Below the pieces are notes generated by a model, which saw only the letters and a list, made by a program, of their open reading frames with translations, did not search any database and was not told where the DNA came from. The position numbers were made by a program, and so were the translations under genes. From Cenarchaeum sp. (GTDB lineage Archaea; Thermoproteota; Nitrososphaeria; Nitrososphaerales; Nitrosopumilaceae), in NCBI GenBank assembly GCA_965212015.1, contig OZ243037.1:992001-1056000 (forward strand): a DNA stretch of 64,000 nt. The letters run 5' to 3'. Position 1 is the stretch's first letter. Each line of letters opens with the position of its first letter. Positions 13,101 through 26,753 of the stretch are shown here, piece after piece.

Positions 13101-14358
13101 TAATGTCATCTTCTGTAAACGTGCTTTCGTCTATGCGCTCGTTGAATGTGGCGTTAAAATTGGCCACATCCGAGGTCGCATCGCCGAGATCCGGCACGAC
13201 GGTGCTGGAGATTGTGACTGTGGGCGGGGTGTTATCCACTTGGGAAAAAGCGGTGGTAAATGGAATTGCCGCAGAGTTGAAGTTATTCTGACCCACACTA
13301 CGCGCCCTGTCTACGGGAATCGACACGGTCAGATCACCGATGGAGGATCCAATACCGACGACAAACGTGTACCGGGAGGGGTTGACTTGCATAAAGCTCG
13401 ATACTTGGGGATCGCCGCCGTTTACGGTACCTGACAGTTCGATCCCCGTTGCGTTAAATCCCGTTACAGGCTCGTTGAATCGGACGTCAAATGTTATGGA
13501 TGATGCGGGCGTGAATGTGCCGTTTGCCAGAGGCGAACCGTCATTGGCCGTGATTGTCGGGATGGTGGGCAGCGTAAAGGCGGCGCGGAGCGGATACTGG
13601 AGGACGGTGTCGGTAGTCGAGGAGACGATATACATGGTCCTGCCGTCAACTGAAAAGTCTATTCCGCGGTAATTAGTAGATGGTGGGGTAAAAGTGTCAA
13701 CGGCTGCACCGAGACCGTCCAGGTTAAAGGGCGGATTCAGGTTGAACTGCTCAATCGCCCTCGCACCCATCACAAACAGCCTTGTGCCGTCAGTGGAGAT
13801 TGCCACGCCGAGAGCACCACCAAACGTGCCTGGATTAAAACTGCTGTCGGCTGCACCGGCGGAGGAAACATCAAAGGGCGTTGAGAGCCGGTATCCAGAA
13901 ATACTACCCCCTCCAATAAACACCCAATCGCCGTTAGCAGAGAATGTAGCACCTAGTCCGCCGCTGATGCAGCAGCCGACGTTTTCGAGTGGAGTGTATG
14001 AATTACTACCATCAATGCTGTACGGGGCAAGACTGTTTCGCCCGTTATTTAGAACATACAAGGTACTCCCGTCATTGGAGACTAGTACGTCCTGAAACTC
14101 GAATGCGTGAGAAGGGGGAAAGTTTCCGCCAGTCGTGCCGGGTACGGTGGCGCTAGCTATGTCAAAGGGGGTACTGAGCGAGAATGTAATGATACTATTG
14201 GTTCCTGAAACATACAATGTCATGCCGTCGTTGGACATGGTCAGCCCCGTGGGTATGCTTTCAGGAGGATTGACGCTGATGGATGTCTGGGCATAAGCCG
14301 AGACTGGGATCAAAACCAACAGTGGCAACAGAAAGGCTACCATCATGCTCTTTTGCAT
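7129..14358 (-). CDS. giant secreted surface protein A (about 2409 aa): signal peptide, beta-propeller repeats, bacterial-Ig-like repeats, cadherin/He_PIG-like modules, conserved C-terminal domain
   Basis: Start MQKSMMVAFLLPLLVLIPVSAYAQ at 14358 matches the paralog start and lies 22 nt from a TATA box; recurrent FSxDGxxMF/Y..L..PFD blades; PTVTI.S...FSEPV..F Ig repeats; YSLSNHPGWLSIDSATGQLSG. Confidence 0.88.
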   Translation of the reverse strand: MQKSMMVAFLLPLLVLIPVSAYAQTSISVNPPESIPTGLTMSNDGMTLYVSGTNSIITFSLSTPFDIASATVPGTTGGNFPPSHAFEFQDVLVSNDGSTLYVLNNGRNSLAPYSIDGSNSYTPLENVGCCISGGLGATFSANGDWVFIGGGSISGYRLSTPFDVSSAGAADSSFNPGTFGGALGVAISTDGTRLFVMGARAIEQFNLNPPFNLDGLGAAVDTFTPPSTNYRGIDFSVDGRTMYIVSSTTDTVLQYPLRAAFTLPTIPTITANDGSPLANGTFTPASSITFDVRFNEPVTGFNATGIELSGTVNGGDPQVSSFMQVNPSRYTFVVGIGSSIGDLTVSIPVDRARSVGQNNFNSAAIPFTTAFSQVDNTPPTVTISSTVVPDLGDATSDVANFNATFNERIDESTFTEDDITFVGPPGVHMATNVARVNDFVYSFQIDSEDTEATLAIRILADTFTDLQGNANDASTAPYSFTFVSIPTVNVTSDDVEHEGTANLETIRFMAEFSEPVSQFLASEIIVDSTASAGTHRASNLLPATGPATIFTFDVQRNDAGGTINVSIPEGAAIDVDHLPHGNAASEVYTATFTAPDGPPTVTITSTDVPDLGETLLDVANFNATFSEPIMESTFTLDDITFLGGSSEGYVPENLTRRTDLIYSFQIGIRDTEETLSIFIAAGTFMDLQGTANVAPAIPYLISFGIRPTVNVTSTDVEHEGTTNLETIRFMAEFSEPVSQFFIDEITVDSTAPAGTHRASNFSPATGQAATFAFDVQRNGTDGTINVSIPEGIAMDVDDSPQSNTASEIRTATFTAGLPPVIILPVISHQYVVDGPISLQFGLVSGRPASFALDGAPASAAITAGGAFTWTPDAVGNVEFNVVATGPSNADVEPVTLRIVDDVRTLTLNNTLVFDQTFERSTAGDVPRNVDFSRNGTLMFIIEANDRDITTYSTSGTPFVFANTTGNPNSDIVRGPVAVLPGTTVPSDTEFSNDGRTMFVLEAPNLHEYSMDSPYDVESLSLVNSHRLTGIDGATVGFALSSDGTKLFVLGGATSDISVYEFALGVPFSLSDVSSSGAAVVLIDAEPRNLTFPNDLAFRSDGTSMFVIGGFAARFHEYALGAPFSILSGVEYMENSVAFHPQTGNLVGLHITADNQRMFTLGSSNSGTVVDNVFGFSLPELIAPTVIIGSTTQEDATVDGIAAFNATFSESVSGLEASDIIISSSAGVHVVSNFRTDDNTVFDFDVLRGATDAIITVSIPAGAAQSAINIGNTASNDYSVNLILTPPLIDYAPTTSHSGTYTIPTDLAFSSNGTLLFVLESGANDRILQYDLGTAFDVSSRSDDFTAEFFVGSADTAPTAVEFSNNGQRMFIIGTQNDRVHEYILDAPYAMPSSPTDPDRSFPATGSLPDNVPEGLDFSSDGLHMYVVGAENDRIYGYTLGGPFFLTSISAPPVSSPLPDGRPTGSEITDDGSILYVLGGQAVNSFRNIYAYSLGTAHDVSDLTLLGARQPLTSAQVTGMEFGSDSRILYVTERSSNGILAFATNTALPELGDLNFGFTEDSDVSELAPVPGSDDDPGAVLEYSLSNHPGWLSIDSATGQLSGIVPQDNSPLFDSMDTPARCFEQGSVEFTVTVSDDGFDSDNTDDVSRDYTVSVFNNARSPNDLPSNVNNMDIPLARTATQLDLSLYTSDTDAEDTLTYSFAGLAGNAITPDSLAIDSDTGLATFTSTGNSGTATIDYLVCDGSHLSSLQVTTASSTQPSISFADITKRVLIGHNSVISAQEFFDSITIDAPNGEEFFFPGDQLPSPPGFPHHNPGSGNRENDLMGLYRVEGDLTGTDEAIPSRNFVGNQTWNFIAELRATSGSVTMNPGDLAIGGPRDGMAAQAGDVVARATNLYTLTTFAPTVGNFSAVYSPGDTVDIQFPITPDNVNYDLVLDEVAEEMLATLGLSHGNIINRNPSDLRLSGTIPLDLVPPTGATEDYTIEYTALLRPGVSTTEFLGTLYIRVSDVITLDATTADGFSIPASSLGAPDNATFTAVTYEPELTGAGDDGDGNALFDLMFVDVEGVRTAMLVSTADEDYACSDLADQMLTITTTTTGEDGSMPVTVTTIVFEPCSGGGDDDTQWRTKPTFGKSYTTGQKIVDCGYSMDNVCRDVTDYHVDYKRNTIETDSLHDFALTAYAQNGLRSFNIGFGMPGIGSPLNAAEAQINVNLIRDYSINSTYMIDSVEYSNENRVIGEDATFEISRVKCLPTDENNLCVRLNIDGVLFRETLYDEPFAINALDSKRRGTTHYMNEGLLVFGDSLNVPPTHELSERHSNQGDAVKLHLTRTDKLADVWTDQLGHQWTKNAFGTWSYVDAPPVDMSSACTDEDNRACDAFAQKRDAHIIQMEELRDSVYGRAYVTSHDGRQ

Positions 14359-14390
14359 ATACAACCCCCCCCCCCAACTGCTTATAAAAG
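14359..14390 (-). promoter_or_regulatory. TATA box plus G11 homopolymer spacer of giant gene A
   Basis: Minus strand CTTTTATAAG-CAGTT-G11-TTGTAT-ATG; C run at 14365-14375 on the plus strand. Confidence 0.8.
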
Positions 14391-14408
14391 TATAATCATC
14401 GGTTTTTT

Positions 14409-14468
14409 GTAACCGGTTAGGTTCAAGCGGGATATTTGGATCCGCAGGCACCGGACCTAACCGGTTAC
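14409..14468 (+). repeat. complete 60-bp palindromic element with perfect 14-bp terminal inverted repeats
   Basis: GTAACCGGTTAGGT (14409-14422) ... ACCTAACCGGTTAC (14455-14468). Confidence 0.9.
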
Positions 14469-14521
14469 GAACCGGTTCTTGACTGCGATCATGCGGGATC
14501 AGGGTGAACATGGCGTCAGGA

Positions 14522-14764
14522 CTAGAACTTCCATTCTTCACACAGTCCGTTCCACAGGGGACGGAACACGTCCGGATCCTTTCCAATCTCCTGCGTGATG
14601 CGGTTTTTGAGCACGAATGAAAAGTTCTCCAGCGCATCAATGCCGCCGTCATTATACAGCTCTTCTCCAATCTCGGAGATCCGGGCCTTTTTTGCCTCGG
14701 CTTCCCCGGATTCCGGGTTTTGGAGGCAGAACGTCATCAGGTCGATTAGCTCCTCCTCCAGCAT
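14522..14764 (-). CDS. conserved thaumarchaeal hypothetical protein (about 80 aa)
   Basis: MLEEELIDLMTFCLQNP...IGEELYNDGGIDALENF...LWNGLCEEWKF; protein-like composition and host-like codon usage. Confidence 0.75.
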   Translation of the reverse strand: MLEEELIDLMTFCLQNPESGEAEAKKARISEIGEELYNDGGIDALENFSFVLKNRITQEIGKDPDVFRPLWNGLCEEWKF

Positions 14765-14934
14765 AAAGTCCATAAGGAATTGCGGCATTTTCCGATATTT
14801 ACCGGTATCGAAGGACGCCTGTCCGGGAGTTTACACAGCAGGCCGAATACTAGCCGGACTGGCAGATAAACTAGCAGGTTCCCCGCTTTTGGATGCGCGC
14901 TTTAAGACGGGTTGGCCGGGCTTGTTAGCTTGTC

Positions 14935-15240
14935 TATTCGATCCAGGCCAGAACGTCCGGGATGCGTTCTCAGGGGCAGATGTCTTTCTCAACATGAACT
15001 TGGAGCTGCGCGAATCAATCTACAAGTTTGTCGAGCTGTTGTTTGAAAATACGCTCAAGACGCCCCACATAAGAGTCCGGAATGATGCATGCCTTTACAG
15101 TCTCGATGGCATCCTCCCCGTTATCAAGACAAGCGGGAGTCTCGATTCTCACAAAAACTGGTGATTTGATATCCGCTGGAATCAATGAGGTCCCAAAGGC
15201 TGGCAGTGGCCATTATCTGGCCGGGGACAAAAATGATGCG
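14935..15240 (+). pseudogene. internal fragment of an anti-phage-type dCTP/dCMP deaminase (kinase-deaminase fusion)
   Basis: Frame A GQNVRDAFSGADVF...LRESIYKFVELLFENTLKTP, then a frameshift and TAA near 15063-15072, then frame B GMMHAF...SSPLSRQAGVSI...GDLISAGINEVPKAGSGHYLAGDKNDA; HAE/PCxxC part absent. Confidence 0.75.
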
Positions 15241-15265
15241 GCTTGTTCCATATTACATGCCGCAT

Positions 15266-15526
15266 CTACAGCCCGATGAGGTCGTCATCAGACGCCCTTG
15301 TGCAGTCTGTCCCCACCGGCCTGAGCTCAGTAAAGGTGATCTTTCCCTCCGGAATCCTTGCCATGCCCTGCAGTGCGCCGAGTTTTTCACGCACGGCCCT
15401 TTTATGCCTGCCGCAAGTCACCCCCACCATGTACTCTCCGTCGCCGGAGGCCACAGAGATGACAAACTCCGGCGGGTTGACGCACAGCTTGCCGCCTTTT
15501 TTTACGGAACACCTGTCGGGAAGCAT
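15266..15526 (-). CDS. conserved Cys-containing hypothetical protein
   Basis: MLPDRCSV...CVNPPEFVI...YMVGVTCGRH...VGTDC; directly downstream of the FAD oxidoreductase. Confidence 0.7.
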   Translation of the reverse strand: MLPDRCSVKKGGKLCVNPPEFVISVASGDGEYMVGVTCGRHKRAVREKLGALQGMARIPEGKITFTELRPVGTDCTRASDDDLIGL

Positions 15527-15557
15527 GAGTGACACCGGAATGATGGCGATATTAATC

Positions 15558-16853
15558 TTAGTCGAACACGCCGGCATGGCGCCAAATGGATTCGCGCGAG
15601 CAATCCCCGTAATCCAAAAAACCCCCCTCCTGCAGCTTTTTTACTACAAACGCAGAATATGCAGGCGCGCCGGTGGCGCCAGGCGAGTTGTAGTTTATTA
15701 TGCTAAGGGAACCCTCGCCTTTTAGCTCCAGCACGTCTGAGAGAAACCCGCCCTCCGGCGTGATTATCTGCGAACGTATTCCCGCAGTGCCCCTGCCGCT
15801 AAAAAATTCCGGCCTCACCCGGGGGATGAATTTTTTGAGGCGCCCGACCATCGCCGTCTTTGAGACCGAGCTGAGCCATTCCTTGCACACCATGGACAAA
15901 AATTCCGGATCAAGGAGCAGTTTTTTTGCATTTCCCGTCACCAGGCCCCCTAGCTTGCATAGCGACTCGCCAATGTCACCCACGTAACCCTCGTATATCT
16001 CCGAGCCCAGAACGGGAACGGCGTTTGGGCCGATCTCGACTGTGCCGTCGGCCTTTTTTATCCAGTGCGGATCCAAAAAAGGATACCCCTCAAACTCTGC
16101 GACGGTGTATGCCGTGGTCCCGACCAGTCCGGCATGCTGCGCGTCTGCGACCCAGTACTCGCCCCGGAAATGAAGATCAGAGTACTGTGTGGCCGTCCCC
16201 AAAAGATGCGCAACATCCAAAGAGTTCCCCCCCGCGCAGTTGATCACAAAGTCGGCCGATATTTCTGGGCCGCCTTCAAGTAGCATGGTGTGGCCGTCCG
16301 GGTTTTTTTGTATGTCCGTTACGTTTTTTTGCATCAAAAAGTCGGTCCCGTTTTTTTGCGACTCGTTTTTTGTCGCGCGGCACAGCGCCCCGAAATCCGT
16401 CGACGCCTCTCGCGTGCAGTGTATGGCCGAGTGGCACCGGATGTTTGGCTCCATTTTTGAGACCTGGGCCCCGTCTAGCAGGCGCATGTCGTCTGGCGGA
16501 ATCCCGTTTTCATCCCCCCATTTCATGTACCGCTCGAGGCTCTTGTGTTGCCCCTCGTCTAGTGCCAGCTCCAAGACCCCGGTCCTCGCCCACGGTATTT
16601 TTTCCCTTTTTGCAAGATCCTCCCACATTCCGCGGGATAACAGGGCCGATCTTGCCAGCATTCCCCTTGTCTTTGGATTCAGATAAAACGGAGAGTGCAC
16701 CACGCCGGTATTGCGCCCGCTGGCATGCATTGCGACGCCGGATTCCTTTTCTATTACAGCCGTCCTTGCACCACAAAGCGACGAGATCCAGTACGATATG
16801 CTGGTGCCAAGGATTCCTCCCCCGATGATTGCAATGTCGTATCGCTCCAACAC
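15558..16853 (-). CDS. FAD-dependent oxidoreductase, L-2-hydroxyglutarate oxidase (LhgO)-like
   Basis: IIGGGILG, HASGRNTGVVH, INCAG, FRGEY, IGPNA, AGIRSQ, SPGATGA. Confidence 0.88.
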   Translation of the reverse strand: MLERYDIAIIGGGILGTSISYWISSLCGARTAVIEKESGVAMHASGRNTGVVHSPFYLNPKTRGMLARSALLSRGMWEDLAKREKIPWARTGVLELALDEGQHKSLERYMKWGDENGIPPDDMRLLDGAQVSKMEPNIRCHSAIHCTREASTDFGALCRATKNESQKNGTDFLMQKNVTDIQKNPDGHTMLLEGGPEISADFVINCAGGNSLDVAHLLGTATQYSDLHFRGEYWVADAQHAGLVGTTAYTVAEFEGYPFLDPHWIKKADGTVEIGPNAVPVLGSEIYEGYVGDIGESLCKLGGLVTGNAKKLLLDPEFLSMVCKEWLSSVSKTAMVGRLKKFIPRVRPEFFSGRGTAGIRSQIITPEGGFLSDVLELKGEGSLSIINYNSPGATGAPAYSAFVVKKLQEGGFLDYGDCSRESIWRHAGVFD

Positions 16854-17092
16854 ACGTGGATCGTCGTGTTCACATTAATTGATTTTGAATCACGGCACGC
16901 AGGCGGCGCCGGGAGGCAGACTGGCATTCCCGGGGGCCGTCCCCGTCACGGCCGGGATCCATCCCGGCTGCTCAAAAGGCCTTCATTTTGGGGCCGGTCT
17001 TGTTACAGATGGGTCCGTACCAGCTATATCATAATCAGGGCATCGTTGCCTGCATTTCACGCAAGACGCGGATTTGTTCGGCGTATGTTCAA

Positions 17093-20000
17093 CTAGGGAT
17101 CCTGCATGCCGTGAAGAACCAAAAAGGCCTCGCGTGAGTCGCCGTCGGCATTATGGATGCTGACTGTCGTTTCCAGGTCGTCAAAGGCCGGAACGGTATA
17201 GATGCCGCCGTAATAGAAATCACGCAGCTCCTCCATCTGAATAATGTGCGCGTCGCGCTTTTGGGCAAAGGCGTCGCACGCACGATTGTCCTCGTCGGTA
17301 CACGCACTCGACATGTCGACTGGCGGCGCATCCACGTACGACCACGTGCCAAACGCGTTCTTTGTCCACTGGTGTCCCAGCTGGTCGGTCCACACGTCTG
17401 CAAGCTTGTCGGTCCGAGTCAGGTGCAGCTTTACTGCGTCGCCCTGGTTTGAGTGCCTCTCGCTGAGCTCGTGCGTGGGGGGCACGTTTAGCGAGTCGCC
17501 ATACACCAGCAGTCCCTCGTTCATATAGTGGGTGGTGCCGCGCCTCTTTGAGTCCAGCGCGTTTATTGCAAACGGCTCGTCGTACAGCGTCTCGCGGAAC
17601 AGTACGCCATCTATGTTCAGCCGCACGCACAGGTTATTTTCGTCTGTAGGCAGGCATTTTACGCGCGATATCTCAAATGTGGCGTCCTCGCCTATCACGC
17701 GATTCTCGTTTGAATATTCCACGGAATCTATCATGTACGTGGAGTTTATGGAATAGTCGCGTATCAGGTTTACGTTAATCTGCGCCTCTGCAGCATTCAG
17801 GGGCGAGCCTATTCCGGGCATGCCAAAGCCGATGTTAAACGAGCGCAGGCCGTTTTGTGCGTACGCCGTTAGCGCAAAGTCGTGAAGCGAGTCAGTCTCT
17901 ATGGTATTGCGTTTGTAATCGACGTGATAGTCAGTTACGTCGCGGCAGACATTGTCCATGGAATAGCCGCAGTCCACTATTTTTTGGCCAGTCGTGTACG
18001 ACTTGCCAAACGTCGGCTTTGTCCTCCACTGCGTGTCGTCATCGCCGCCTCCCGAGCACGGTTCAAAGACAATGGTGGTAACCGTGACGGCCGTGCTGCC
18101 GTCCTCGCCGGTGGTAGTGGTAGTTATGGTAAGCATCTGATCTGCCAGATCACTGCAGACATAGTCCTCATCGGCAGTCGAGGCAAGCGACACCGTTTGT
18201 ACACCCTCCACATCAACAACCATCAATTCGAATAGATCGTTACCTTCACCGTCATCACCGGCGCCGGTAAGTTCCGGCGCGTACGTCGCTCCAGTAAAGG
18301 TGGCATTATCCGGGGCACCCAGACTGCTTGCCGGGATGCTAAATGTCTCAAGTGCGGCCACATCCAGCGTGATTACATCAGAGACCCGGATGTTGAGCGT
18401 GCCCGGAAATGTAATGGTGGATACGCCGGGGCGCAGAAGAGCAGTATATTCAATGGTATAGTCTACAGTCGCACCGGTGGACGGCACCAGGTCAAGCGGG
18501 ATGGTGCCGGACAGCCTCAGGTCGGCAGGATTCCGGTTTATGATATTTCCGTGGCTCAGCCCGAGGGTCGCCAACATCTCTTCGGCCTCTGCGTCCAATA
18601 CGAGGTCATAATTGACATTATCGGGCGTTATTGGAAACGATATGTCCACAGTGTCGCCGGGCGAATATACTGCTGAAAAGTTGCCGACAGTCGGGGCAAA
18701 CGTCGTAAGGGTATAGAGGTTCGTGGCCCTTTCAACTACATCGTCTACCACTGCGTCACCGGTCTCCACACCGTTGGCATCTATTGCCTGGTCGTTCGGA
18801 TTATTCGTGACGGATTCTGCCGTGGCGCGCAACTCTACTATAAAGTTCCATGTTTGGTTGCCTATAAAGTTCCTAGAGGCAAGTGTCTCATCACCATCTA
18901 GTGTACCTTGAACAGGGTAAAAGCCCCTCTGAGCGCTTTCACGGGCGCCGTTACCGGGATTATGATGGGGGAATCCGGGCGGTGAGGGCAGTTGGAACTC
19001 TGGGAAAAAGAGCGCTTCCCCGTTTGGATTATCAAAAGTTACACTTTCAAGAAACTCTTGTGCCGAGATAAACGAATTATGACCTACCAGCACCCTCTGT
19101 GTAATGTCGGCAAACAATATGGAGGGCTGGGTGGCCGATGCAGTCGTCACTTGCAAACTCGAGAGGTGCGAGCCGTCACACACCAGATAATCGATGGTTG
19201 CCGTACCGGTGTTGCCAGTCGACGTAAAGGTCGCAATGCCCGTATCGGAATCAATCGCAAGGGAGTCCGGAGTGATGGCGTTGCCTGCCAGGCCCGCAAA
19301 GGAGTACGTCAGGGTGTCCTCGGCATCGGTATCGCTGGTATACAGGGAGAGATCCAGCTGTGTGGCAGTTCTGGCAAGCGGAATGTCCATGTTGTTCACG
19401 TTTGAGGGAAGGTCGTTGGGCGATCTTGCATTGTTAAATACACTAACGGTATAGTCGCGCGAGACATCATCGGTATTATCGGCATCAAAGCCGTCATCAG
19501 ATACCGTCACGGTAAACTCTACGCTGCCCTGTGTGAAGCACCTTGCGGGGGTATCCATGCTATCAAAAAGGGGCGAGTTGTCCTGCGGGACAATACCGGA
19601 GAGCTGTCCCGTGGCGGAATCTATGCTCAGCCAGCCCGGATGGTTCGAGAGGCTGTATTCCAGTACTGCGCCCGGGTCGTCATCGGATCCCGGAACCGGG
19701 GCCAATTCAGAGACGTCACTGTCCTCCGTAAAGCCAAAGTTCAGGTCCCCAAGCTCGGGAAGCGCCGTGTTTACCGCAAACGCCAGGATGCCATTGCCTG
19801 TGCGTTCTGTAACGTATAGGATCCTAGAGTCCGAACCGAACTCCATCTCTGTTAACTGTACGCCGGCTAGCGGCCGCGTCTCTAAAAGGGTCAGATCACT
19901 CACGTCATGGGCGGTGCCAAGCGAATATACAAAGAGATTGCGAAAGCCGTTCCTGCCCTGCTCGTCCAAAACGTACAGTATGGAGCCGTCATCGGTGATT

Positions 20001-23000
20001 TCAGATCCGGTCGGGCGGCCAACGGTCAGGTCAGAGAATACCGGGGGTTTCGTGATGCTTCCCAGGAGAAACGGACTGCCTAGCTCGTACCCGAATATGC
20101 GGTCGTTTTGGGCGCCTGTCATGTACATGTACCGGCCGTCACTTGAAAAGTCCAGTCCTTCCGGGAAACTATCCGGAAGCCTGCCGGTGGCGGGAAAACT
20201 GCGGTCGGGGTCGGTGGGGGAGGACGGCATTGCATAGGGGGCATCGAGGATATACTCGTGTATGCGGTCGTTTTGGGTTCCAATTATAAACATGCGCTGG
20301 CCGTTATTTGAGAATTCCACCCCGTTGGGCGAATTATCTGCAGAACCCACAAAGAACTCTGCGGTGAAATCATCGGACCTGCTCGATACGTCAAAGGCCG
20401 TACCGAGGTCATACTGGAGTATGCGATCATTCGTACCGGTCTCGACTACAAACAAGAGCGTGCCGTTACTGGAAAATGCCAGATCGGTGGGCAGGGAGTA
20501 GGTGCCGGAATGCGAGGTTGTGGGCGCATAGTCAATCGATGGCGGAGTAAGTATCAGGTTGACAGAATAGTCGTTCGATGCCGTATTGCCGACGTTTATT
20601 GCGTTCTGGGCCGCACCTGCCGGAATCGATACGGTAATGATGGCGTCGGTGGCCCCGCGAAGCACGTCAAAGTCAAACACGGTATTATCATCGGTTCTAA
20701 AGTTTGATACCACGTGAACGCCCGTGCTGCTCGATATTATAATATCGGATGCCTCCAGTCCCGACACCGACTCGCTGAATGTGGCGTTAAACGCTGCAAT
20801 GCCGTCGACTGTGGCATCCTCCGGGGTGGCGCTGTTGATTGTTACCGTGGGTGTGATGATCTCGGGAAGGGAGAACCCAAAGACGTTATCAACAGCTCCG
20901 GTAGCGCTAGAGCCGAGTGTAAACATGTGCTGGTTGTCAGCTGTTATACGCAGGCCATTGACGTTTCCGGTCTGGGGGTGAAAGGAAACAGAGTTGTCCA
21001 CATACGTTACACCGGAGAGGATTGAGAACGGGGCGCCCAGCGCATACTCGTGGAATCTGCCGGCGAATCCTCCAATGACAAACATGGATGTGCCATCGGA
21101 GCGAAATGCCAGATCGTTCGGAAAAGTCAGGTTACGCGGCTCTGCATCGATCAGATCGACGGCGGCGCCGCTGGAGGATACGTCAGAAAGGGAAAAGGGG
21201 ACGCCCAGCGCAAACTCATAGACGCTAATATCGGAAGTAGCGCCGCCAAGGACGAACAGCTTTGTGCCGTCAGATGAAAGGGTAAACCCGACTATGCCCC
21301 CATCTATGCCGGTCAGCCTGTGCGAGTTTACCAGCGAGAGGGATTCCACATCATAGGGCGAATCCATGCTGTATTCATGGAGGGATCTGGGGGTTCCCAG
21401 CACAAACATGGTGCGTCCGTCGTTTGAGAATTCCGCATCCGACGGCTCTGTAGTCCCCGGCAGTACGGCCACGGGGCCGCGCACAATGTCGCTGTTGGGG
21501 TTGCCCGTCGTGTTTGCAAAGACAAACGGCGTTCCGCTGGTAGAGTATGTGGTGATATCGCGATCATTGGCCTCCATTATGAACATGAGCGTGCCGTTCC
21601 TTGAAAAGTCCACGTTGCGCGGAGTGTCACCTGCCGTCGACCTCTCAAAGGTCTGGTCAAATACGAGCGTGTTGTTCAGGGTAAGTGTCCTGACGTCATC
21701 CACTATGCGGAGTGTTACGGGTTCGACGTCCGTATTACTTGGACCTGTGGCAACGACGTTAAATTCAACGTTCCCGACGGTATCTGGCGTCCATGTGAAC
21801 GCGCCGCCGGGCGTTATCGCGGCGGATGCCGGCGCGCCGTCGAGTGCAAGGGTTGCCGACCGGCCCGATACCAGGCCGAACTGCAGCGAGATCGGCCCAT
21901 CCACCACGTATTGGTGCGATATTACCGGCAGTATGATTACGGGCGGCAGTCCGGCGGCAAATGTGGCCGTACGAACTTCGGATGCCGCATTGCCGTGTGG
22001 AGTGCGATCCACATCAACGGCGGCGCCCTCCGGAATGCTCACATTTATTGTGCCGTCCGTGCCGTTGCGCTGCACATCAAAGGTGAATGTGTCTGCCTGG
22101 CCGGTGGCGGGCAAAAGATTCGACGCCTTGTGGGTGCCGGCAGGTGCGGTGCTAACCACGGTAATCTCGTCTACTGAAAATTGCGTCACGGGCTCGCTGA
22201 ACTCGGCCATAAACCGTATGGTCTCCAGGTTGGCGGTCCCCTCGTGTTCCACATCATCACTGGTTATGGTCACGGTGGGCGTGGTGACAAATGTAAAGGA
22301 GTACGGGGCAGTTGACTCCTCATTGAGGTTGCCTTGCAGATCCGTGAACGCACCGGCGTCAATGCGTATGATCAAGTTAGCTTCGATGTCTTCGCTGTCT
22401 ATCTGAAAGCTGTATACGAGGTTGTTTACCCGGGCAACGTTCGTTGCCATGTGGACTCCGGGGGGGCCGACGAAGGTAATGTCATCTTCTGTAAACGTGC
22501 TTGCGACTATGCGCTCGCTGAACTCGGCCCTAAAAGTGGCCACATCCAAGGTCGTCTCGCCGCGATCCTCCACGTCGGTGCTGGTGATTGTGACTGTGGG
22601 CGGGGTCTCATCAAGGACCAGCTGGACAACAGGCGCATCGTCAAACTCGAGCCTGTATGACGTAAACACCGTCACATCAACAGGGTCGTCTGCAAACCTT
22701 ACATCAAACGTTATTACTTCAAATCCGATAACGTCATTCGTGCCGGGGGCTATTTGGTAATGGGTGGCATTGAGCCTGGTTGCAGTGATGTGAGAGTTAT
22801 CCCGGGCGCCACTACCGTCCTCGGGCAGCTGAACGTTACTGATCGTAACATGCTCCACAAAGGCGGCATCCCCCCTGGCGACCAGATCTGGAAGATTTAG
22901 GAGGAACGGCTCAAATCCGGGTGTCAAAAAGAGCCGGCCTACCGGGGATTGTGGAAATCCCAGCGGTACGGTTCCGGCAGGATCCGACTCGAATCGGAAT

Positions 23001-25609
23001 AACAGTTGTTCGCTTTGGGGCAGATTTACCCCGTCATCCAGGGCAAAGGTAAACCTGGTCTGGCAGTTACACCCGGGACCGGGGGGCGTTACGATGAGAC
23101 GATCGCCCACTATATTGGCGGATAACGCCTGGTTGCTCTGGCCCGTTATGGTAACATCAAGGCGGGGCCTGCTGTTGTCATTATCCACAAACAGGTCATT
23201 CAGTGGGATGGCAAACCGGTCATTGACGGCGTTGCGCGGTCCAAACTTCAGGCCACTATGCAGTTCCCCGGGTGCCGCGTCGGTGTTACGGGTGACAATT
23301 GTGTAATTGACTATCAGGCTGTCGTGGACCAGCGGAATGATATCTCCCACAACGACCCCCGTGGACGGGATTATTGTCGGACCGTGCAGGACGGCAGTGA
23401 ACGTTACAGAATCCGTGGGGGTTGTAAAGTCGGATGTCGGATTATACGATATGGACCCAGAGCCGTTGGATGGGAATACTCTAATCTGGACTGTGGTCCC
23501 GTTCGAGGTCAGCTCGGGAACAAGGGTGGCGGGATCGGTCTGGTTGATTCGAATCTCCCCCGTTGCATCCGCATTGTCGGCAGTTATTATAATGTGGTTA
23601 AACGCCACCCTCGGGTCTATGGCAAAGTCGTCCCAGTTCAGGACGACATCCTCAGCCAAAAGGCCATGGTTTACATTAATTGAGGAGTCCAGGAATATGC
23701 CGGACTCGGTCGTCTCTATGTCCCGCACTGTAACCGTTATAGTCTCACAGGTGATAGCGTTTGGCACGCCCGTGGCCTGGCTTTCGGCGCACAGCTTGGC
23801 GGCCACTATGCCTGATGATACCGGGTCTATGGACAGTATATCTCCTGTAATGCTCAAATCTACGATTCCGGGATCCAGGTTGGTCACAGTGTATATGATG
23901 TCATCGCCCTCCGGATCCATAAAAAATTCGTTCAACATTACCGTCATGTCCGCATCCGAGGAATCAACTATGTATCCTGCCGTCAGGTTGGATATGGGGG
24001 CCGCATCGGTCTTGTTTACAGTTATATCAAATATGCCAGAGAACATGCTTCCGTCCTGTAAGGCAAACGTATAGGTTATCGGGATGGGATCCGACTGTAT
24101 GCCGGTGGTCACAAATGTGTCGGATATCGTGTGTCTTGTTCTTTCGTCCGTTTCTTCGTCTATCGTCTGGCTGACTATCTGAAATCCATTTATGAATATT
24201 ACACCTGTGGTGTCGTTAAACTGCAGAGGGTCGGCACCACTCGCTACAAGTTCTTGTATCGACTGTAGATCCAGGTTTTCTAGGTCTACCACCCTAGAAA
24301 AATTAATTACACTTAGCGGTATTCCCAGCTCGCCGGTTACCACCGGAATAGTGCCCCTGTCGATGGGGGATTCGGTATGGGAGAGGATATACAATAGCAG
24401 GGAATTCAGCGTCTGCCCCTCGTTTATCGTCTGATCCGGGATGCTCCTGATCACAACGGGCGGGAGGGTAACTGCCTGGGTAAAAGTGGCGGTAAACGGA
24501 ACGGACGCCGAACTGCGGTGACTATTCGCACCCATTGCCGCGCCTTCGGGAATCGATACGGTCACAGTGCCAGCGATGGATCCAACACCGACGACAAACG
24601 TGTACTTGGAGGGGTCGGTAGGGTTTGCCGTAAATTCCGATATTATTAGATTGCCGTCGGTTGCGGTACCCGTCAACACAATATCCTCTTCAACAAATCC
24701 CGTCACATCCTCGCTGAATTGGACGTTAAATGTTATGGCTGGCTCGGCCGTGGATGCGCCGTTTGCCAGATTGCCCCCGGCATCGGCGGTAATTCTCATC
24801 GCGGTGGGCAGGGTAAAGGGCTCGGGAAGCGCATACTGGAGCATGCGATCACCGCCGGAGGTATCCAAAAGATACATGGTCCTACCGTCGGTTGAAAAGT
24901 CCATGCCGCGTGCATTAACAAATGGTATGAGGGAGGTAAAAGTATCAACGGGTGTTGAGCTGGTACCGTTCAGGTGAAATGGCGTACTTAGGGCATACTG
25001 GCTAACCGTAGTACCAAAAAAAGTAAACAGCCTTGTGCCGTCATTGGAGATTGACACGCCCTGCCCCATATGGCCCGTGTCAAACGTGCCGTGAAAGCTA
25101 ACGTCGTCAGTTATATCAAAGGGGTTTTCGAGCCGGTATGAAACGACACCATTATCGCGTCCAAGAAATATCCAGTTACCGCCCCTAGAGATTCCACCAT
25201 CAAAATTCCCGCCATCACAGCAGTCTGGGGGATCAATTAAGAGGGTAAGCTCACCAGTCATAGGATCTGCCGGTAACGTGATAACGCGGGATTGAGATCC
25301 GCTGCTGACTAGAAATACTGTGGCACCGTTATTGTGAACCATTACGCCCTGTGCATTATTCGTAGGAGGGTCAAAACGCTGCATTATGCCCGCATCGACG
25401 ATGCTGGTTATATCAAAGGGGGTAGTGAGCGTGAATCTGGTAAGCTCGCTAGGTTCTGCGACATACACTCTCAGTCCGTCGTTGGATATTGTCATTCCCA
25501 CGGGAAGTCCTGCGGGCGCTATACTGACGGGAAACTGTGCGTGAGCCGAAATGGGGATTAAAACCAACAATGGCAATAGGAAGGCTGCTACCAGCATGCT
25601 CTTTTGCAT
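17093..25609 (-). CDS. giant secreted surface protein B (2838 aa), paralog of 7129-14358 with an extra block of about 620 aa
   Basis: Signal peptide MQKSMLVAAFLLPLLVLIPISAHAQ; same propeller/Ig/cadherin-like architecture; 17218 to about 22270 collinear with 7176 to about 12230. Confidence 0.9.
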   Translation of the reverse strand: MQKSMLVAAFLLPLLVLIPISAHAQFPVSIAPAGLPVGMTISNDGLRVYVAEPSELTRFTLTTPFDITSIVDAGIMQRFDPPTNNAQGVMVHNNGATVFLVSSGSQSRVITLPADPMTGELTLLIDPPDCCDGGNFDGGISRGGNWIFLGRDNGVVSYRLENPFDITDDVSFHGTFDTGHMGQGVSISNDGTRLFTFFGTTVSQYALSTPFHLNGTSSTPVDTFTSLIPFVNARGMDFSTDGRTMYLLDTSGGDRMLQYALPEPFTLPTAMRITADAGGNLANGASTAEPAITFNVQFSEDVTGFVEEDIVLTGTATDGNLIISEFTANPTDPSKYTFVVGVGSIAGTVTVSIPEGAAMGANSHRSSASVPFTATFTQAVTLPPVVIRSIPDQTINEGQTLNSLLLYILSHTESPIDRGTIPVVTGELGIPLSVINFSRVVDLENLDLQSIQELVASGADPLQFNDTTGVIFINGFQIVSQTIDEETDERTRHTISDTFVTTGIQSDPIPITYTFALQDGSMFSGIFDITVNKTDAAPISNLTAGYIVDSSDADMTVMLNEFFMDPEGDDIIYTVTNLDPGIVDLSITGDILSIDPVSSGIVAAKLCAESQATGVPNAITCETITVTVRDIETTESGIFLDSSINVNHGLLAEDVVLNWDDFAIDPRVAFNHIIITADNADATGEIRINQTDPATLVPELTSNGTTVQIRVFPSNGSGSISYNPTSDFTTPTDSVTFTAVLHGPTIIPSTGVVVGDIIPLVHDSLIVNYTIVTRNTDAAPGELHSGLKFGPRNAVNDRFAIPLNDLFVDNDNSRPRLDVTITGQSNQALSANIVGDRLIVTPPGPGCNCQTRFTFALDDGVNLPQSEQLLFRFESDPAGTVPLGFPQSPVGRLFLTPGFEPFLLNLPDLVARGDAAFVEHVTISNVQLPEDGSGARDNSHITATRLNATHYQIAPGTNDVIGFEVITFDVRFADDPVDVTVFTSYRLEFDDAPVVQLVLDETPPTVTITSTDVEDRGETTLDVATFRAEFSERIVASTFTEDDITFVGPPGVHMATNVARVNNLVYSFQIDSEDIEANLIIRIDAGAFTDLQGNLNEESTAPYSFTFVTTPTVTITSDDVEHEGTANLETIRFMAEFSEPVTQFSVDEITVVSTAPAGTHKASNLLPATGQADTFTFDVQRNGTDGTINVSIPEGAAVDVDRTPHGNAASEVRTATFAAGLPPVIILPVISHQYVVDGPISLQFGLVSGRSATLALDGAPASAAITPGGAFTWTPDTVGNVEFNVVATGPSNTDVEPVTLRIVDDVRTLTLNNTLVFDQTFERSTAGDTPRNVDFSRNGTLMFIMEANDRDITTYSTSGTPFVFANTTGNPNSDIVRGPVAVLPGTTEPSDAEFSNDGRTMFVLGTPRSLHEYSMDSPYDVESLSLVNSHRLTGIDGGIVGFTLSSDGTKLFVLGGATSDISVYEFALGVPFSLSDVSSSGAAVDLIDAEPRNLTFPNDLAFRSDGTSMFVIGGFAGRFHEYALGAPFSILSGVTYVDNSVSFHPQTGNVNGLRITADNQHMFTLGSSATGAVDNVFGFSLPEIITPTVTINSATPEDATVDGIAAFNATFSESVSGLEASDIIISSSTGVHVVSNFRTDDNTVFDFDVLRGATDAIITVSIPAGAAQNAINVGNTASNDYSVNLILTPPSIDYAPTTSHSGTYSLPTDLAFSSNGTLLFVVETGTNDRILQYDLGTAFDVSSRSDDFTAEFFVGSADNSPNGVEFSNNGQRMFIIGTQNDRIHEYILDAPYAMPSSPTDPDRSFPATGRLPDSFPEGLDFSSDGRYMYMTGAQNDRIFGYELGSPFLLGSITKPPVFSDLTVGRPTGSEITDDGSILYVLDEQGRNGFRNLFVYSLGTAHDVSDLTLLETRPLAGVQLTEMEFGSDSRILYVTERTGNGILAFAVNTALPELGDLNFGFTEDSDVSELAPVPGSDDDPGAVLEYSLSNHPGWLSIDSATGQLSGIVPQDNSPLFDSMDTPARCFTQGSVEFTVTVSDDGFDADNTDDVSRDYTVSVFNNARSPNDLPSNVNNMDIPLARTATQLDLSLYTSDTDAEDTLTYSFAGLAGNAITPDSLAIDSDTGIATFTSTGNTGTATIDYLVCDGSHLSSLQVTTASATQPSILFADITQRVLVGHNSFISAQEFLESVTFDNPNGEALFFPEFQLPSPPGFPHHNPGNGARESAQRGFYPVQGTLDGDETLASRNFIGNQTWNFIVELRATAESVTNNPNDQAIDANGVETGDAVVDDVVERATNLYTLTTFAPTVGNFSAVYSPGDTVDISFPITPDNVNYDLVLDAEAEEMLATLGLSHGNIINRNPADLRLSGTIPLDLVPSTGATVDYTIEYTALLRPGVSTITFPGTLNIRVSDVITLDVAALETFSIPASSLGAPDNATFTGATYAPELTGAGDDGEGNDLFELMVVDVEGVQTVSLASTADEDYVCSDLADQMLTITTTTTGEDGSTAVTVTTIVFEPCSGGGDDDTQWRTKPTFGKSYTTGQKIVDCGYSMDNVCRDVTDYHVDYKRNTIETDSLHDFALTAYAQNGLRSFNIGFGMPGIGSPLNAAEAQINVNLIRDYSINSTYMIDSVEYSNENRVIGEDATFEISRVKCLPTDENNLCVRLNIDGVLFRETLYDEPFAINALDSKRRGTTHYMNEGLLVYGDSLNVPPTHELSERHSNQGDAVKLHLTRTDKLADVWTDQLGHQWTKNAFGTWSYVDAPPVDMSSACTDEDNRACDAFAQKRDAHIIQMEELRDFYYGGIYTVPAFDDLETTVSIHNADGDSREAFLVLHGMQDP
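17218..22270 (+). repeat. direct repeat of about 5 kb matching 7176 to about 12230 (3' halves of the two giant genes)
   Basis: Long near-identical stretches at an offset of about 10040 bp, e.g. AATCACGCAGCTCCTCCATCTGAATAATG at 7176 and 17218. Confidence 0.95.
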
Positions 25610-25642
25610 ATACCACCCCCCCCCCCCAATTGCTTATAAAAG
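25610..25642 (-). promoter_or_regulatory. TATA box plus G12 homopolymer spacer of giant gene B
   Basis: Minus strand CTTTTATAAG-CAATT-G12-TGGTAT-ATG; C run at 25616-25627 on the plus strand. Confidence 0.8.
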
Positions 25643-26584: not shown

Positions 26585-26659
26585 TGGGCCTGAAGAGCTT
26601 CGATCTCTTGACCATTGGATTAGAAGTCCAACACTCTATCCATGCTGAGCTACAGGCCC
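26585..26659 (-). tRNA. tRNA-Arg(UCU)
   Basis: GGGCCTG TAGCTCAGCATGGATAGAGTG TTGGA CT-TCT-AA TCCAA TGGTC AAGAG ATCGAAG CTCTT CAGGCCC A folds as a cloverleaf. Confidence 0.93.
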
Positions 26660-26753
26660 ACAAAAATTTTGATGGCCGCTTCCATTTTAAGGGTTTAGAA
26701 GCATCCGGCATGATACCACAAAAGCATTAAGGGGCCATACGCGGGGTTTTGTC

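What the first reader, a model, noticed from the sequence alone, without database searches (positions are those of the whole stretch)
14359..25642. Poly-G tracts between TATA box and start codon of both giant surface genes: candidate archaeal promoter phase variation
Seen: both paralogs have the same minus-strand promoter, CTTTTATAAG-CA(G/A)TT-Gn-T(T/G)GTAT-ATG. n=11 for gene A (14365-14375) and n=12 for gene B (25616-25627), giving TATA-to-ATG spacers of 22 and 23 nt. These are the longest homopolymers I noticed in the window, and they persist although the adjacent 5' coding regions have diverged strongly. Known: archaeal TBP/TFB place the start site at a roughly fixed distance from TATA, many archaeal mRNAs are leaderless, and G/C tracts of this length are slipped-strand switches in bacterial contingency loci. 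Inference: one-base changes would shift the start site relative to the ATG and tune or switch each adhesin, giving a two-gene surface-variation system. I do not know of this being described in Thaumarchaeota.
Basis: partly seen in the sequence, partly recalled or inferred. Interest (0 to 1): 0.88.

Follow-up and report, generated by a model that had tools for sequence, protein, structure and literature searches.

The report
Poly-G switches before archaeal surface genes
Every long run of G or C in this ammonia-oxidising archaeon's genome sits at the very start of a giant secreted-protein gene, which looks like the slippage-prone on/off switches bacteria use to vary their surface, but switching itself has not been seen.

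Summary
G11 (window 14365-14375) and G12 (25616-25627) lie on the minus strand between a TTTATAA box and the ATG of two giant secreted beta-propeller/Ig genes.

It is much larger than a two-gene system:
- Ten paralogous giant genes (1476-3861 aa, 4.1% of the 1.76 Mb genome) share this promoter and signal-peptide cassette. Seven carry pure G10-G13 tracts and three carry interrupted G-rich tracts.
- All 10 of 10 G/C runs of at least 10 nt in the genome lie within -27 to +26 nt of the start codon of a large signal-peptide gene.
- Runs of 8 nt (5 seen) and 9 nt (none) are depleted elsewhere.
- The box-to-ATG spacers (21-25 nt) match the genome's own leaderless-promoter geometry (mode 23).
- Four further genes carry C8-C11 runs inside their first dozen codons. 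Three of these are one base out of frame.
- Three related Nitrosopumilaceae genomes show the same designs in unrelated sequence.

Best reading, at 0.6: these are archaeal contingency loci driven by slippage.

Not shown: length variation within a population, the transcription start sites, or any effect on expression. Only assembled contigs were available, and they were ambiguous.

My literature searches found no such system described in archaea. Earlier notes of this scan report similar repeats in DPANN archaeal promoters.

The parts
7129..14358 (-). Gene A: 2409-aa secreted giant protein with beta-propeller (SGL/Lactonase-like) repeats
   Evidence: ORF list and script. Pfam hits PF10282 and PF08450. 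The exact product is in the protein collection.
14287..14358 (-). Signal peptide of gene A (24 codons). This is the conserved coding part of the cassette.
   Evidence: The first ~25 codons are nearly invariant across the 10 paralogs, and the mature parts fall to 26-54% identity, apart from one 91% pair.
14359..14364 (-). TTGTAT hexamer between tract and ATG. The T-A step at the ATG fits the archaeal initiator preference.
   Evidence: The initiator rule T(A/G) is taken from passages of PMC7289017. That it acts as an initiator here is inference.
14365..14375 (-). G11 homopolymer of gene A, at about -17 to -7 from the ATG
14376..14393 (-). Conserved core promoter ATACT-TTTATAA-GCAGTT. The TATA box is at 14382-14388, 23 nt before the ATG.
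   Evidence: The spacing matches the genome-wide leaderless peak.
17093..25609 (-). Gene B: 2838-aa secreted giant protein with beta-propeller and Big_12 Ig-like domains
25535..25609 (-). Signal peptide of gene B (25 codons)
25610..25615 (-). TGGTAT hexamer between tract and ATG
25616..25627 (-). G12 homopolymer of gene B
   Evidence: Contigs with a 1-nt deletion occur here in runs X1 and X2, but they are ambiguous with a paralog.
25628..25645 (-). Conserved core promoter ATACT-TTTATAA-GCAATT. The TATA box is at 25634-25640, 24 nt before the ATG.

Best explanation
The two tracts belong to a genome-wide set of slippage-prone G/C homopolymers. These sit at the 5' ends of genes for giant secreted proteins and look like the archaeal counterpart of bacterial contingency loci.

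At genes A and B, and at eight paralogs plus one unrelated 5168-aa gene, the tract fills most of the spacer between the TATA box and the start site of a leaderless mRNA.

In archaea the distance from the TATA box (bound by TBP/TFB) largely sets the start site. Gain or loss of one G during replication should therefore move the start site by one base relative to the ATG:
- A shorter tract would put the start inside the start codon, and the 5'-terminal AUG would be lost.
- A longer tract would add a 1-2 nt leader.

The tract also places G:C pairs in the upstream half of the region that must melt. Each gene's output would then be switched or tuned at random, heritably and reversibly, giving a mixed population of surface types.

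Four other genes use the classical coding-frame version, with C8-C11 inside the first dozen codons.

Shown: the anatomy, the genome-wide association, the promoter geometry, the depletion of such runs elsewhere, and the recurrence in relatives.

Inferred: slippage in vivo, the start sites, and any effect on expression.
For: 1. Bimodal run lengths. G/C runs of 7, 8 and 9 nt number 84, 5 and 0, yet 10 runs have 10-13 nt. The iid expectations are 35.7, 9.1 and 3.1 for 8 nt, 9 nt and 10 nt or more.

2. Position. All 10 of these 10 runs lie -27 to +26 nt from the start codon of a signal-peptide ORF of 1021-5168 aa. None of the 10 A/T runs of 10 nt or more lies within 13 kb of such a start.

3. At least four unrelated sequence contexts:
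- the 10-gene cassette, with G on the coding strand in the promoter spacer
- a TAAAATA-G12-15 nt-ATG promoter before a 5168-aa gene
- a 3-gene FG-GAP/HYR family with C8, C8 and C10 in codons 9-12
- an S8 subtilase with C11 starting 26 nt after its leaderless-type ATG

4. Frame states. In the coding-tract group, 3 of 4 genes are one base out of frame in the assembly. The 104k copy keeps only a truncated signal peptide if translation starts after the tract.

5. Promoter geometry. In non-family genes, 92 of 243 WTTAWAW hits upstream of a first ATG have spacers of 20-27 nt, with mode 23; amoA has 24. The cassette spacers are 21, 23 (x4), 24 (x4) and 25. Passages of PMC6028130 put Thaumarchaeota, 11 of 11 genomes, in the class where leaderless mRNAs prevail.

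6. Tract length changes faster than the flanks. Gene B and the copy at genome position 92k share 98% of the 45 nt upstream and the same core, but carry G12 and G11. The family spans G10-G13, and three copies carry interrupted, shorter-run tracts.

7. No MutS homolog was found in this 99.7%-complete single-contig genome.

8. Recurrence in relatives:
- Congener G001 has 17 runs. About 9 sit at ORF 5' ends, including propeller giants and a secreted S8 protease.
- G017, from another genus, has 20 runs. Nine lie in a different cassette (TATA-like box, C10-12, then a start codon) before secreted paralogs. Two lie inside codons, with C11 in frame and C10 out of frame.
- G019 has TTTTTAT-7 nt-G11-TT-ATG before a secreted S8 protease.
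Against: - No population data. The four runs that hold this DNA are assembled contigs only. The one indel seen at a tract is a 1-nt deletion at 25616. It has depth 680.8 of 11741 in X1 and 25.4 of 642.7 in X2. The paralog at genome position 92k explains it equally well, because its flanks are identical and it carries G11. No indel at the gene A tract was among the rows shown.
- A second assembly's 97%-identical allele of the one in-frame coding-tract gene has the same N-terminus, so no variation is seen there.
- The seven pure cassette tracts are paralogs. Their co-occurrence is partly inheritance and not seven independent events.
- Ordinary leaderless promoters here tolerate spacers of 20-27 nt. 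All ten cassette spacers fall inside that range, so a change of one base may have little effect.
- One in-frame gene out of 4 in the coding-tract group is also what chance gives if the upstream ATGs are not used.
- The sequencing platform is unknown. If the assembly rests on error-prone long reads, exact tract lengths and the out-of-frame states could be errors.
- Not all giant secreted genes have a tract; those starting at genome positions 519845, 553446 and 504863 do not.
Confidence: 0.6

Rival explanations
1. The G-rich spacer is a fixed promoter element of a surface-protein regulon and not a switch. It might bind a regulator, set how easily the promoter melts (dependence on TFE, temperature or supercoiling), or exclude histones. 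On this reading the length differences are tolerated noise.
For: - The three paralogs with interrupted tracts keep a G-rich stretch of 8-12 nt and a similar total spacer of 21-24 nt. G-richness and spacing may therefore be what is conserved, and not purity.
- The tract covers about -17 to -7, overlapping the 12-bp initially melted region described in passages of PMC7289017.
- All cassette spacers lie inside the range used by ordinary promoters.
Against: - It cannot explain tracts on either strand, at varying positions, or inside coding regions of other secreted-protein genes in this genome and in G017.
- It does not explain why runs of 8-9 nt are depleted while runs of 10-13 nt exist only at these genes.
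- No candidate regulator was identified.
Confidence: 0.2
2. The tracts are a neutral by-product. One ancestral cassette happened to hold a G run and was copied with the gene family. The run drifts in length by slippage without any selected function.
For: - The ten cassette copies are homologous (one search finds exactly 10 matches in the genome).
- The cassette recombines among paralogs, giving mosaic upstream and downstream partners.
- Three copies have already decayed by substitution.
Against: - The same association appears in at least three other unrelated contexts in this genome and in unrelated cassettes in three relatives.
- In the seven pure copies, none of the 79 tract positions carries a substitution, although the 6-7 nt on either side vary between copies.
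- Strong genome-wide depletion of 8-9 nt runs suggests that long runs are costly unless kept for a reason.
Confidence: 0.13
3. The tract is transcribed and acts in the mRNA leader. It could be a Shine-Dalgarno-like G stretch 6-7 nt before the ATG, or the target of a small RNA as with H. pylori tlpB/RepG. Transcription would then come from a promoter further upstream.
For: - The 3' end of the tract lies 6-7 nt before the ATG, a good Shine-Dalgarno distance.
- In congener G001, one propeller giant has G12 three nt before the ATG, with the nearest TATA-like box about 48 nt upstream. There the tract should lie in a leader.
- RepG precedent: abstract of PMC8295292.
Against: - In this genome the conserved TTTATAA box lies only 6 nt upstream of the tract. 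Sequence upstream of ATACT is not conserved among paralogs.
- The box-to-ATG distance equals the leaderless mode, so transcripts from this promoter should start after the tract.
- No RNA data were available to test this.
Confidence: 0.05

Closest known systems
Bacterial promoter-spacer contingency loci: Bordetella pertussis fim2/fim3 'C-stretch', Neisseria meningitidis porA/opc poly-G/C, Haemophilus influenzae hifA/B (TA)n. These examples are recalled, not read here; the fim example was also named in earlier scan notes.
   Same: - A G/C homopolymer of 10-15 nt lies inside the core promoter of surface-protein genes.
- Its length sets the spacing between promoter elements.
- Several paralogous genes each have their own tract.
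- The general concept and its bias toward surface proteins are stated in passages of the 2025 review PMC11868660.
   Different: - Here the promoter is of archaeal TATA/TFB type, and the spacer lies between the TATA box and the start of a leaderless mRNA. It does not lie between -35 and -10 boxes or next to an activator site.
- A length change would also move the 5' end relative to the start codon.
- Switching has been demonstrated in the bacteria and not here.
Bacterial coding-region homopolymer phase variation (frameshift switches near the 5' end of surface or restriction-modification genes)
   Same: - C8-C11 runs lie in codons 9-12 of four secreted-protein genes.
- Three of these are one base out of frame in the assembly.
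- G017 has a paralog pair with C11 in frame and C10 out of frame.
   Different: - The host is an archaeon, and the mRNAs are apparently leaderless.
- No strain-to-strain ON/OFF difference has been seen yet.
- The survey in PMC2831843 (passages) found that poly(C)/poly(G) tracts are not placed closer to 5' ends across its 99 genomes, 18 of them archaeal.
SSRs in TATA-to-ATG spacers of secreted-protein genes in DPANN archaea
   Same: - A repeat fills the spacer of a leaderless-type archaeal promoter before surface-protein genes.
- In some cases a shared cassette is reused before several genes.
   Different: - A different phylum: here a free-standing chemolithoautotroph of Nitrososphaeria.
- Longer tracts, a 10-gene giant-protein family, coexistence with coding-frame tracts, and a whole-genome census in which 10 of 10 long G/C runs are of this kind.
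H. pylori tlpB G-repeat in the mRNA leader, targeted by the sRNA RepG (abstract of PMC8295292)
   Same: A variable G run just upstream of the start codon of an envelope-related gene, giving graded rather than on/off control.
   Different: That repeat is transcribed and acts through an antisense sRNA. Here the geometry puts the tract upstream of the start site.

Membership tests
SSR contingency locus (phase-variable gene) | Simple repeat long enough for frequent slippage (G/C run of about 8 nt or more) | tested here: met
   G11 and G12 in the window; G10-G13 in seven cassette copies.
SSR contingency locus (phase-variable gene) | Repeat placed where its length matters: core promoter spacer or 5' coding region | tested here: met
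   The tract lies between the TATA box and the ATG at the leaderless distance. In four other genes it lies in codons 9-12.
SSR contingency locus (phase-variable gene) | Over-representation against the genome background, with enrichment at surface or secreted functions | tested here: met
   All 10 of 10 G/C runs of 10 nt or more lie at starts of signal-peptide ORFs of 1021-5168 aa. Runs of 8-9 nt are depleted: 5 and 0 seen against 35.7 and 9.1 expected. Pfam: propeller/Ig, FG-GAP/HYR, S8.
SSR contingency locus (phase-variable gene) | Repeat number varies reversibly within clonal populations or among close strains | tested here: inconclusive
   Only assembled contigs were available. The 1-nt deletion at 25616 in X1 and X2 is ambiguous with the paralog at genome position 92k. 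One allele from a second assembly shows no change. Paralogs with near-identical flanks differ, G11 against G12.
SSR contingency locus (phase-variable gene) | Expression or phenotype changes with repeat number | not testable with these tools
   No RNA run was listed. This needs reporters or in vitro transcription.
Bacterial -35/-10 spacer switch (porA, fim, hif type) | Repeat lies between sigma-70 promoter hexamers or next to an activator site | tested here: not met
   The host is an archaeon: AmoA is present and the promoter geometry is TATA-box type. It works like this family but is not a member.
Archaeal leaderless promoter | TATA box about 22-27 nt upstream of the start codon, no leader, pyrimidine-purine step at the start | tested here: met
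   Spacers are 23 and 24 nt against a genome mode of 23. There is a T-A step at the ATG. Literature values are 22-24 nt or about 26 nt (PMC6028130 passages). The actual TSS has not been mapped.
Giant beta-propeller/Ig surface proteins of Nitrosopumilaceae | N-terminal signal peptide, repeated SGL/Lactonase-like propeller blades and Ig-like domains | tested here: met
   Pfam PF08450, PF10282, PF19078 and PF05345 in the ten paralogs. There are 191 blade-like matches in giant frames of congener G001. Signal peptides were judged by eye; no predictor was run.

The most novel reading that the evidence does not exclude
Ammonia-oxidising archaea of the Nitrosopumilaceae run a true contingency-locus system. 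G/C homopolymers sit in the TATA-to-start spacer of leaderless promoters and in the first dozen codons. They switch at random a repertoire of at least 15 giant surface proteins and secreted proteases in this genome. Independently evolved cassettes do the same in other genera. This would give combinatorial surface variation, for example against viruses, grazers or a host. It would be the first such system in archaea with a eukaryote-like core promoter as the switch.
Probability: 0.5. Interest if true: 0.87.

Novelty: new variant of a known kind. Interest (0 to 1): 0.78.

Why it matters
Phase variation by repeat slippage is a textbook bacterial strategy. The 2025 review I read in passages (PMC11868660) still lists its distribution in archaea as future work.

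Here a complete, closed genome of a globally important nitrifier lineage shows an all-or-none rule: every long G/C run lies at the start of a giant secreted-protein gene. This makes the question directly testable with existing metagenomic reads.

If confirmed, three things would follow:
- Stochastic surface variation exists in free-living or symbiotic archaea.
- A TATA/TFB promoter with a leaderless mRNA can be used as a one-base ruler.
- The hypervariable giant genes of marine Thaumarchaeota are individually switchable. That matters for virus-host and symbiosis studies, and for reading 'frameshifted' genes in archaeal MAGs.

Tried and rejected
- **RNA evidence.** No RNA holder was listed among the 9 runs returned, so expression could not be examined.
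- **Reads.** All four runs laid (X1-X4) are Logan contigs.
  - Contigs break at the repeated cassette; for example, X1 record 3 ends at 25591.
  - Depth at 25616 sums paralogs (11741 against about 490 for single-copy DNA).
  - The 'goes back' joint from 25645 to 14512 is explained by paralog 391k, which has A-like upstream DNA.
  - I could not see the 12 indel rows that were not shown.
- **Cassette in other DNA.** I found none.
  - 0 matches in genome contigs.
  - 0 of 40 relatives by BLAST.
  - The one metagenome scan gave 8 loci, all chance matches without the tract or the gene.
- **Protein-level search for strain variants of the coding-tract family.** It found only this genome's three paralogs. 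One extra allele turned up by cluster look-up.
- **Earlier notes of this scan.** There were none for this genome.
- **Poly-G as a sequencing artefact.** I rejected this. The tracts have conserved flanks on both sides, occur on both strands at 10 loci, and are covered in two independent samples.
- **G-quadruplex or reiterative transcription.** I considered these, but nothing here bears on them.
- **Long G runs in same-genus genomes G002-G004.** There are hundreds, but they lie in GC-rich dispersed repeats and are a different phenomenon.
- **Supplements.** I did not open the supplements of the papers read. Supplemental Table S4D of PMC6028130 may list which Thaumarchaeota were classified.

Full report
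**1. The observation**

- Gene A, minus strand: ATACT-TTTATAA-GCAGTT-G11-TTGTAT-ATG, with the G run at 14375-14365 and the ATG at 14358.
- Gene B, minus strand: ATACT-TTTATAA-GCAATT-G12-TGGTAT-ATG, with the G run at 25627-25616 and the ATG at 25609.

The spacers from the last A of the box to the ATG are 23 and 24 nt.

A G9 search of the window gives 7 overlapping matches, all inside these two tracts. Shuffling predicts 0.88, and 0 of 100 shuffles reach 7.

The ORFs run 7129-14358 (2409 aa) and 17093-25609 (2838 aa). Both products, read from exactly these ATGs, are in the public protein collection.

Pfam finds SGL/Lactonase-type beta-propeller repeats in both and a Big_12 Ig-like domain in B. 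Both begin with a conserved signal-peptide-like segment, which I judged by eye. The promoter and signal-peptide stretch aligns well, while the sequence on either side has diverged.

**2. The organism**

The window lies in a single-contig genome of 1,764,220 bp with 51.1% GC. The genome encodes archaeal AmoA. The nearest named relatives of its argininosuccinate lyase are Nitrosopumilaceae and Nitrosotenuis MAGs, at 62-65% identity.

The genes around A and B are housekeeping genes: TGT, beta-CASP nuclease, OGG, thioredoxin-reductase-like, a PLP enzyme, a DAO oxidoreductase between A and B, a tRNA, a DNA methylase and ASL.

**3. It is a genome-wide system**

*Run-length distribution.*

| G/C run length | Observed | iid expectation |
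|---|---|---|
| 7 nt | 84 | 139.6 |
| 8 nt | 5 | 35.7 |
| 9 nt | 0 | 9.1 |
| 10 nt or more | 10 (two of 10, five of 11, two of 12, one of 13) | 3.1 |

The distribution is bimodal. Medium runs are avoided, and a separate class of long runs exists.

*The cassette family.* Seven of the ten long runs lie in the same cassette as genes A and B. A BLAST of the 141-nt cassette finds exactly 10 copies in the genome and none in 40 relatives. The other three copies have interrupted G-rich tracts: GGGGGGTTGGGG, GGGGTGGG and GGGGGGATGGGA.

The ten genes encode proteins of 1476-3861 aa and together make up 4.1% of the genome. Five of them stand in tandem at genome positions 379.9-422.5 kb. All have propeller and/or Ig-like domains.

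*The remaining three long runs.*

- A G12 follows a TAAAATA box directly and lies 15 nt before the ATG of a 5168-aa Big_12/SWM-repeat protein.
- A C10 lies 25 nt after the ATG of a 1021-aa FG-GAP/HYR protein.
- A C11 lies 26 nt after an ATG that precedes a secreted S8 subtilase.

*Census.* All 10 of 10 long G/C runs lie between -27 and +26 nt of the start of a large ORF with a signal-peptide-like N-terminus. None of the 10 A/T runs of 10 nt or more lies within 13 kb of such a start.

I compiled the list of starts after seeing the tracts. The feature-blind list of all 57 open frames of 900 codons or more independently flags the same genes. It also shows that several giant secreted genes have no tract.

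**4. Promoter geometry**

I took every first-ATG ORF of 120 aa or more (2186, spurious ones included). Leaving out the family, WTTAWAW boxes upstream pile up at spacers of 20-27 nt. That range holds 92 of the 243 hits within 0-73 nt, with a mode of 23. The amoA gene has a spacer of 24.

This is the signature of leaderless transcription. Passages of PMC6028130 place all 11 Thaumarchaeota it analysed in the class where leaderless mRNAs prevail. The same paper puts the promoter box about 26 nt from the gene start, with a spacer of 22-24 nt in H. salinarum.

The cassette spacers are 21, 23 (x4), 24 (x4) and 25. The G tract therefore occupies about -17 to -7 of a leaderless promoter. That overlaps the 12-bp initially melted region, and the T-A step at the ATG fits the T(A/G) initiator (PMC7289017 passages).

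Among the 68 non-family promoters with spacers of 21-25 nt, none has a G run longer than 3. Long G runs are thus not a general promoter feature.

Conservation among the paralogs starts sharply at ATACT and ends with the signal peptide. Upstream DNA falls into unrelated groups, with different partners than the downstream DNA. A shares 98% of its upstream 45 nt with the 391k copy, but its coding start is 91% identical with the 422k copy. The cassette therefore also serves as a recombination patch.

**5. Evidence that tract length is the fast-changing character**

- Gene B and the 92k copy share 98% of the upstream 45 nt and an identical core, yet carry G12 and G11.
- The family spans G10, G11 (x4), G12 and G13.
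- The hexamers flanking the tract vary between copies, while none of the 79 tract positions in the seven pure copies is substituted.
- No MutS homolog is detectable in this 99.7%-complete genome, while 11 of 14 control genomes gave a hit. Only a partial NucS_C match exists.

**6. The coding-frame version**

The FG-GAP/HYR family has three paralogs. Each has an A/T-rich box 22-23 nt before an ATG and a C run starting 25 nt after it.

- With C10 the 228k copy is open for 1021 aa.
- With C8 the 222k and 104k copies stop after 11 codons. One more C would open 923 and 917 aa.
- The subtilase has C11 and stops after 37 codons. C10 would open 1778 aa.

Deposited gene calls for the two C8 copies start after the tract. 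For the 104k copy this leaves a truncated signal peptide, which argues that the upstream ATG is the real start.

There are two caveats. One in-frame gene out of four is also what chance predicts. The sequencing platform is unknown, so homopolymer miscalls cannot be excluded.

**7. Relatives**

Fourteen of 41 genomes searched have any G10, including all five of the genus.

- **G002-G004.** The runs number in the hundreds and lie in GC-rich dispersed repeats. That is a different matter.
- **G001 (congener, 2.0 Mb, closed).** It has many giant propeller frames of up to 12,016 codons and 17 runs of 10 nt or more.
  - About 9 of these lie at the 5' end of an open frame of 150 aa or more.
  - They include G12 three nt before the ATG of a propeller giant, ATTATAAG-9 nt-G11-C-ATG before a small secreted protein, G11 before two paralogous propeller proteins, and C17 64 nt before a secreted S8 protease.
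- **G017 (another genus, 20 runs).**
  - Nine lie in one cassette unrelated to ours: a TATA-like box, C10-12, then a GTG or ATG start 8-9 nt later in eight of the nine, before paralogous secreted proteins.
  - Two more lie inside codons of near-identical paralogs, with C11 in frame and C10 out of frame.
- **G019.** It has TTTTTAT-7 nt-G11-TT-ATG before a secreted S8 protease.

The same two designs thus recur in unrelated sequence, on either strand, at the same classes of genes. Mutability is the property these cases share; a fixed binding site is not.

**8. What could not be shown**

Nine runs were listed for the window DNA, and none is on record as RNA. The four runs I laid are assembled contigs.

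At the gene B tract, contigs with a 1-nt deletion occur in X1 (2 contigs, depth 680.8 of 11741.2) and X2 (1 contig, 25.4 of 642.7). The 92k paralog has the same flanks and G11, and the summed depth shows that paralogs pile up there. This is therefore not evidence of heteroplasmy. No row for the gene A tract was among those shown.

A 97%-identical allele of the 1021-aa gene from a second assembly has the same N-terminus. The cassette was not found in other collections.

**9. Mechanism**

- **Most likely (0.6).** Replication slippage changes the run by one base. Start-site choice in archaea follows the distance from the TATA box; I recall this from the classical in vitro work of Reiter et al. 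1990 and did not read it here. A change of one base would therefore move the 5' end relative to the ATG of a leaderless mRNA. A contraction should delete the 5'-terminal AUG. In the MQKT-type paralogs there is no second Met in the signal peptide. An expansion should add a short leader.
- **Graded effect possible.** Ordinary promoters here work with spacers of 20-27 nt, so the effect may be graded rather than on/off.
- **Rivals.** A fixed G-rich promoter element (0.2), a neutral hitch-hiker (0.13) and a transcribed SD-like or sRNA-target leader (0.05).

**10. Comparison and novelty**

The closest known systems are bacterial promoter-spacer switches (Bordetella fim C-stretch, Neisseria porA/opc, Haemophilus hif; recalled) and coding-frame homopolymer switches. 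This system works like them. It fails the membership test for the bacterial promoter type, because the promoter is archaeal.

Six literature searches found no description of such a system in archaea. The search terms were:

- phase variation + archaea + homopolymeric
- Thaumarchaeota + poly-G
- ammonia-oxidizing archaea + phase variation
- archaea + contingency loci + simple sequence repeats
- slipped-strand + TATA box + archaeal
- Cenarchaeum + homopolymer

Related statements I read in passages:

- PMC2831843 reports statistics for homopolymers in coding genes only. It found no 5' bias for poly(C)/poly(G).
- PMC11868660 names the archaeal distribution of phase variation as future work.
- A 2025 preprint states that contingency loci are known in archaea, without a specific archaeal example in the passages I saw.

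Earlier notes of this scan report similar repeats in TATA-to-ATG spacers of DPANN archaea. The idea is therefore not new to the scan, but it is new for this lineage and at this scale.

Verdict: a real feature and a new variant of a known kind, with high interest. It awaits read-level and TSS evidence.

Noticed in passing
window 7129-7350 and 17093-17400; genome copies at 92k, 380k, 392k, 399k, 407k, 415k, 814k: Nine of the ten cassette genes, and the 5168-aa gene at 535k, end in a conserved Cys-containing C-terminal module (…C.D.D.R.C.AF..K…). An identical 24-nt, 2.2-copy repeat lies near the 3' end of both A and B (7322-7373, 17364-17415). There is no C-terminal hydrophobic anchor, so how these proteins stay on the cell is open.
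   Followed up: partly
genome 537124-541554 (tenth cassette gene) and 1137421-1142758 (S8 subtilase): These two otherwise unrelated secreted proteins share a C-terminal tail ending in a DWF.GL.RWLG.A-like motif. It may be a C-terminal sorting signal.
   Followed up: no
window 17000-25400 (gene B body): In runs X1 and X2 the gene bodies attract many variant contigs: 638 were laid in X1, split 294/191/153 across the identity classes 99+, 95-99 and 90-95%. Summed depth is 4-10 times that of neighbouring single-copy genes. The giant genes are highly polymorphic or multi-copy in the sampled populations.
   Followed up: no
G002, G003, G004 (same genus; e.g. L012, L026, L038): These 3.2-3.9 Mb congeners hold roughly 700-800 overlapping G10 matches each. 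Many lie in a dispersed GC-rich repeat of the form …GGGA-G10-AGGTAAGTGTGTAC…. This may be a mobile or MITE-like element carrying a homopolymer.
   Followed up: partly
whole genome G000: No MutS homolog was found, and there is only a partial NucS_C match (2-67 of 124 positions, in a 337-codon frame at 1566235). How this archaeon repairs indels is unclear.
   Followed up: partly
window 26585-27632: A tRNA gene (26585-26659, minus strand) and an N6/N4 DNA methylase gene (26754-27632) lie about 1 kb upstream of gene B's promoter. No link to the tracts was examined.
   Followed up: no
genome 379915-422510: Five cassette genes stand head-to-tail on one strand within 42.6 kb. Upstream and downstream segments are mosaic among paralogs, which suggests recombination at the cassette.
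   Followed up: partly
genome 19454, 873682, 1185656: The three G/C runs of 8 nt that do not belong to the FG-GAP/HYR family were printed, but their gene context was not worked out.
   Followed up: no
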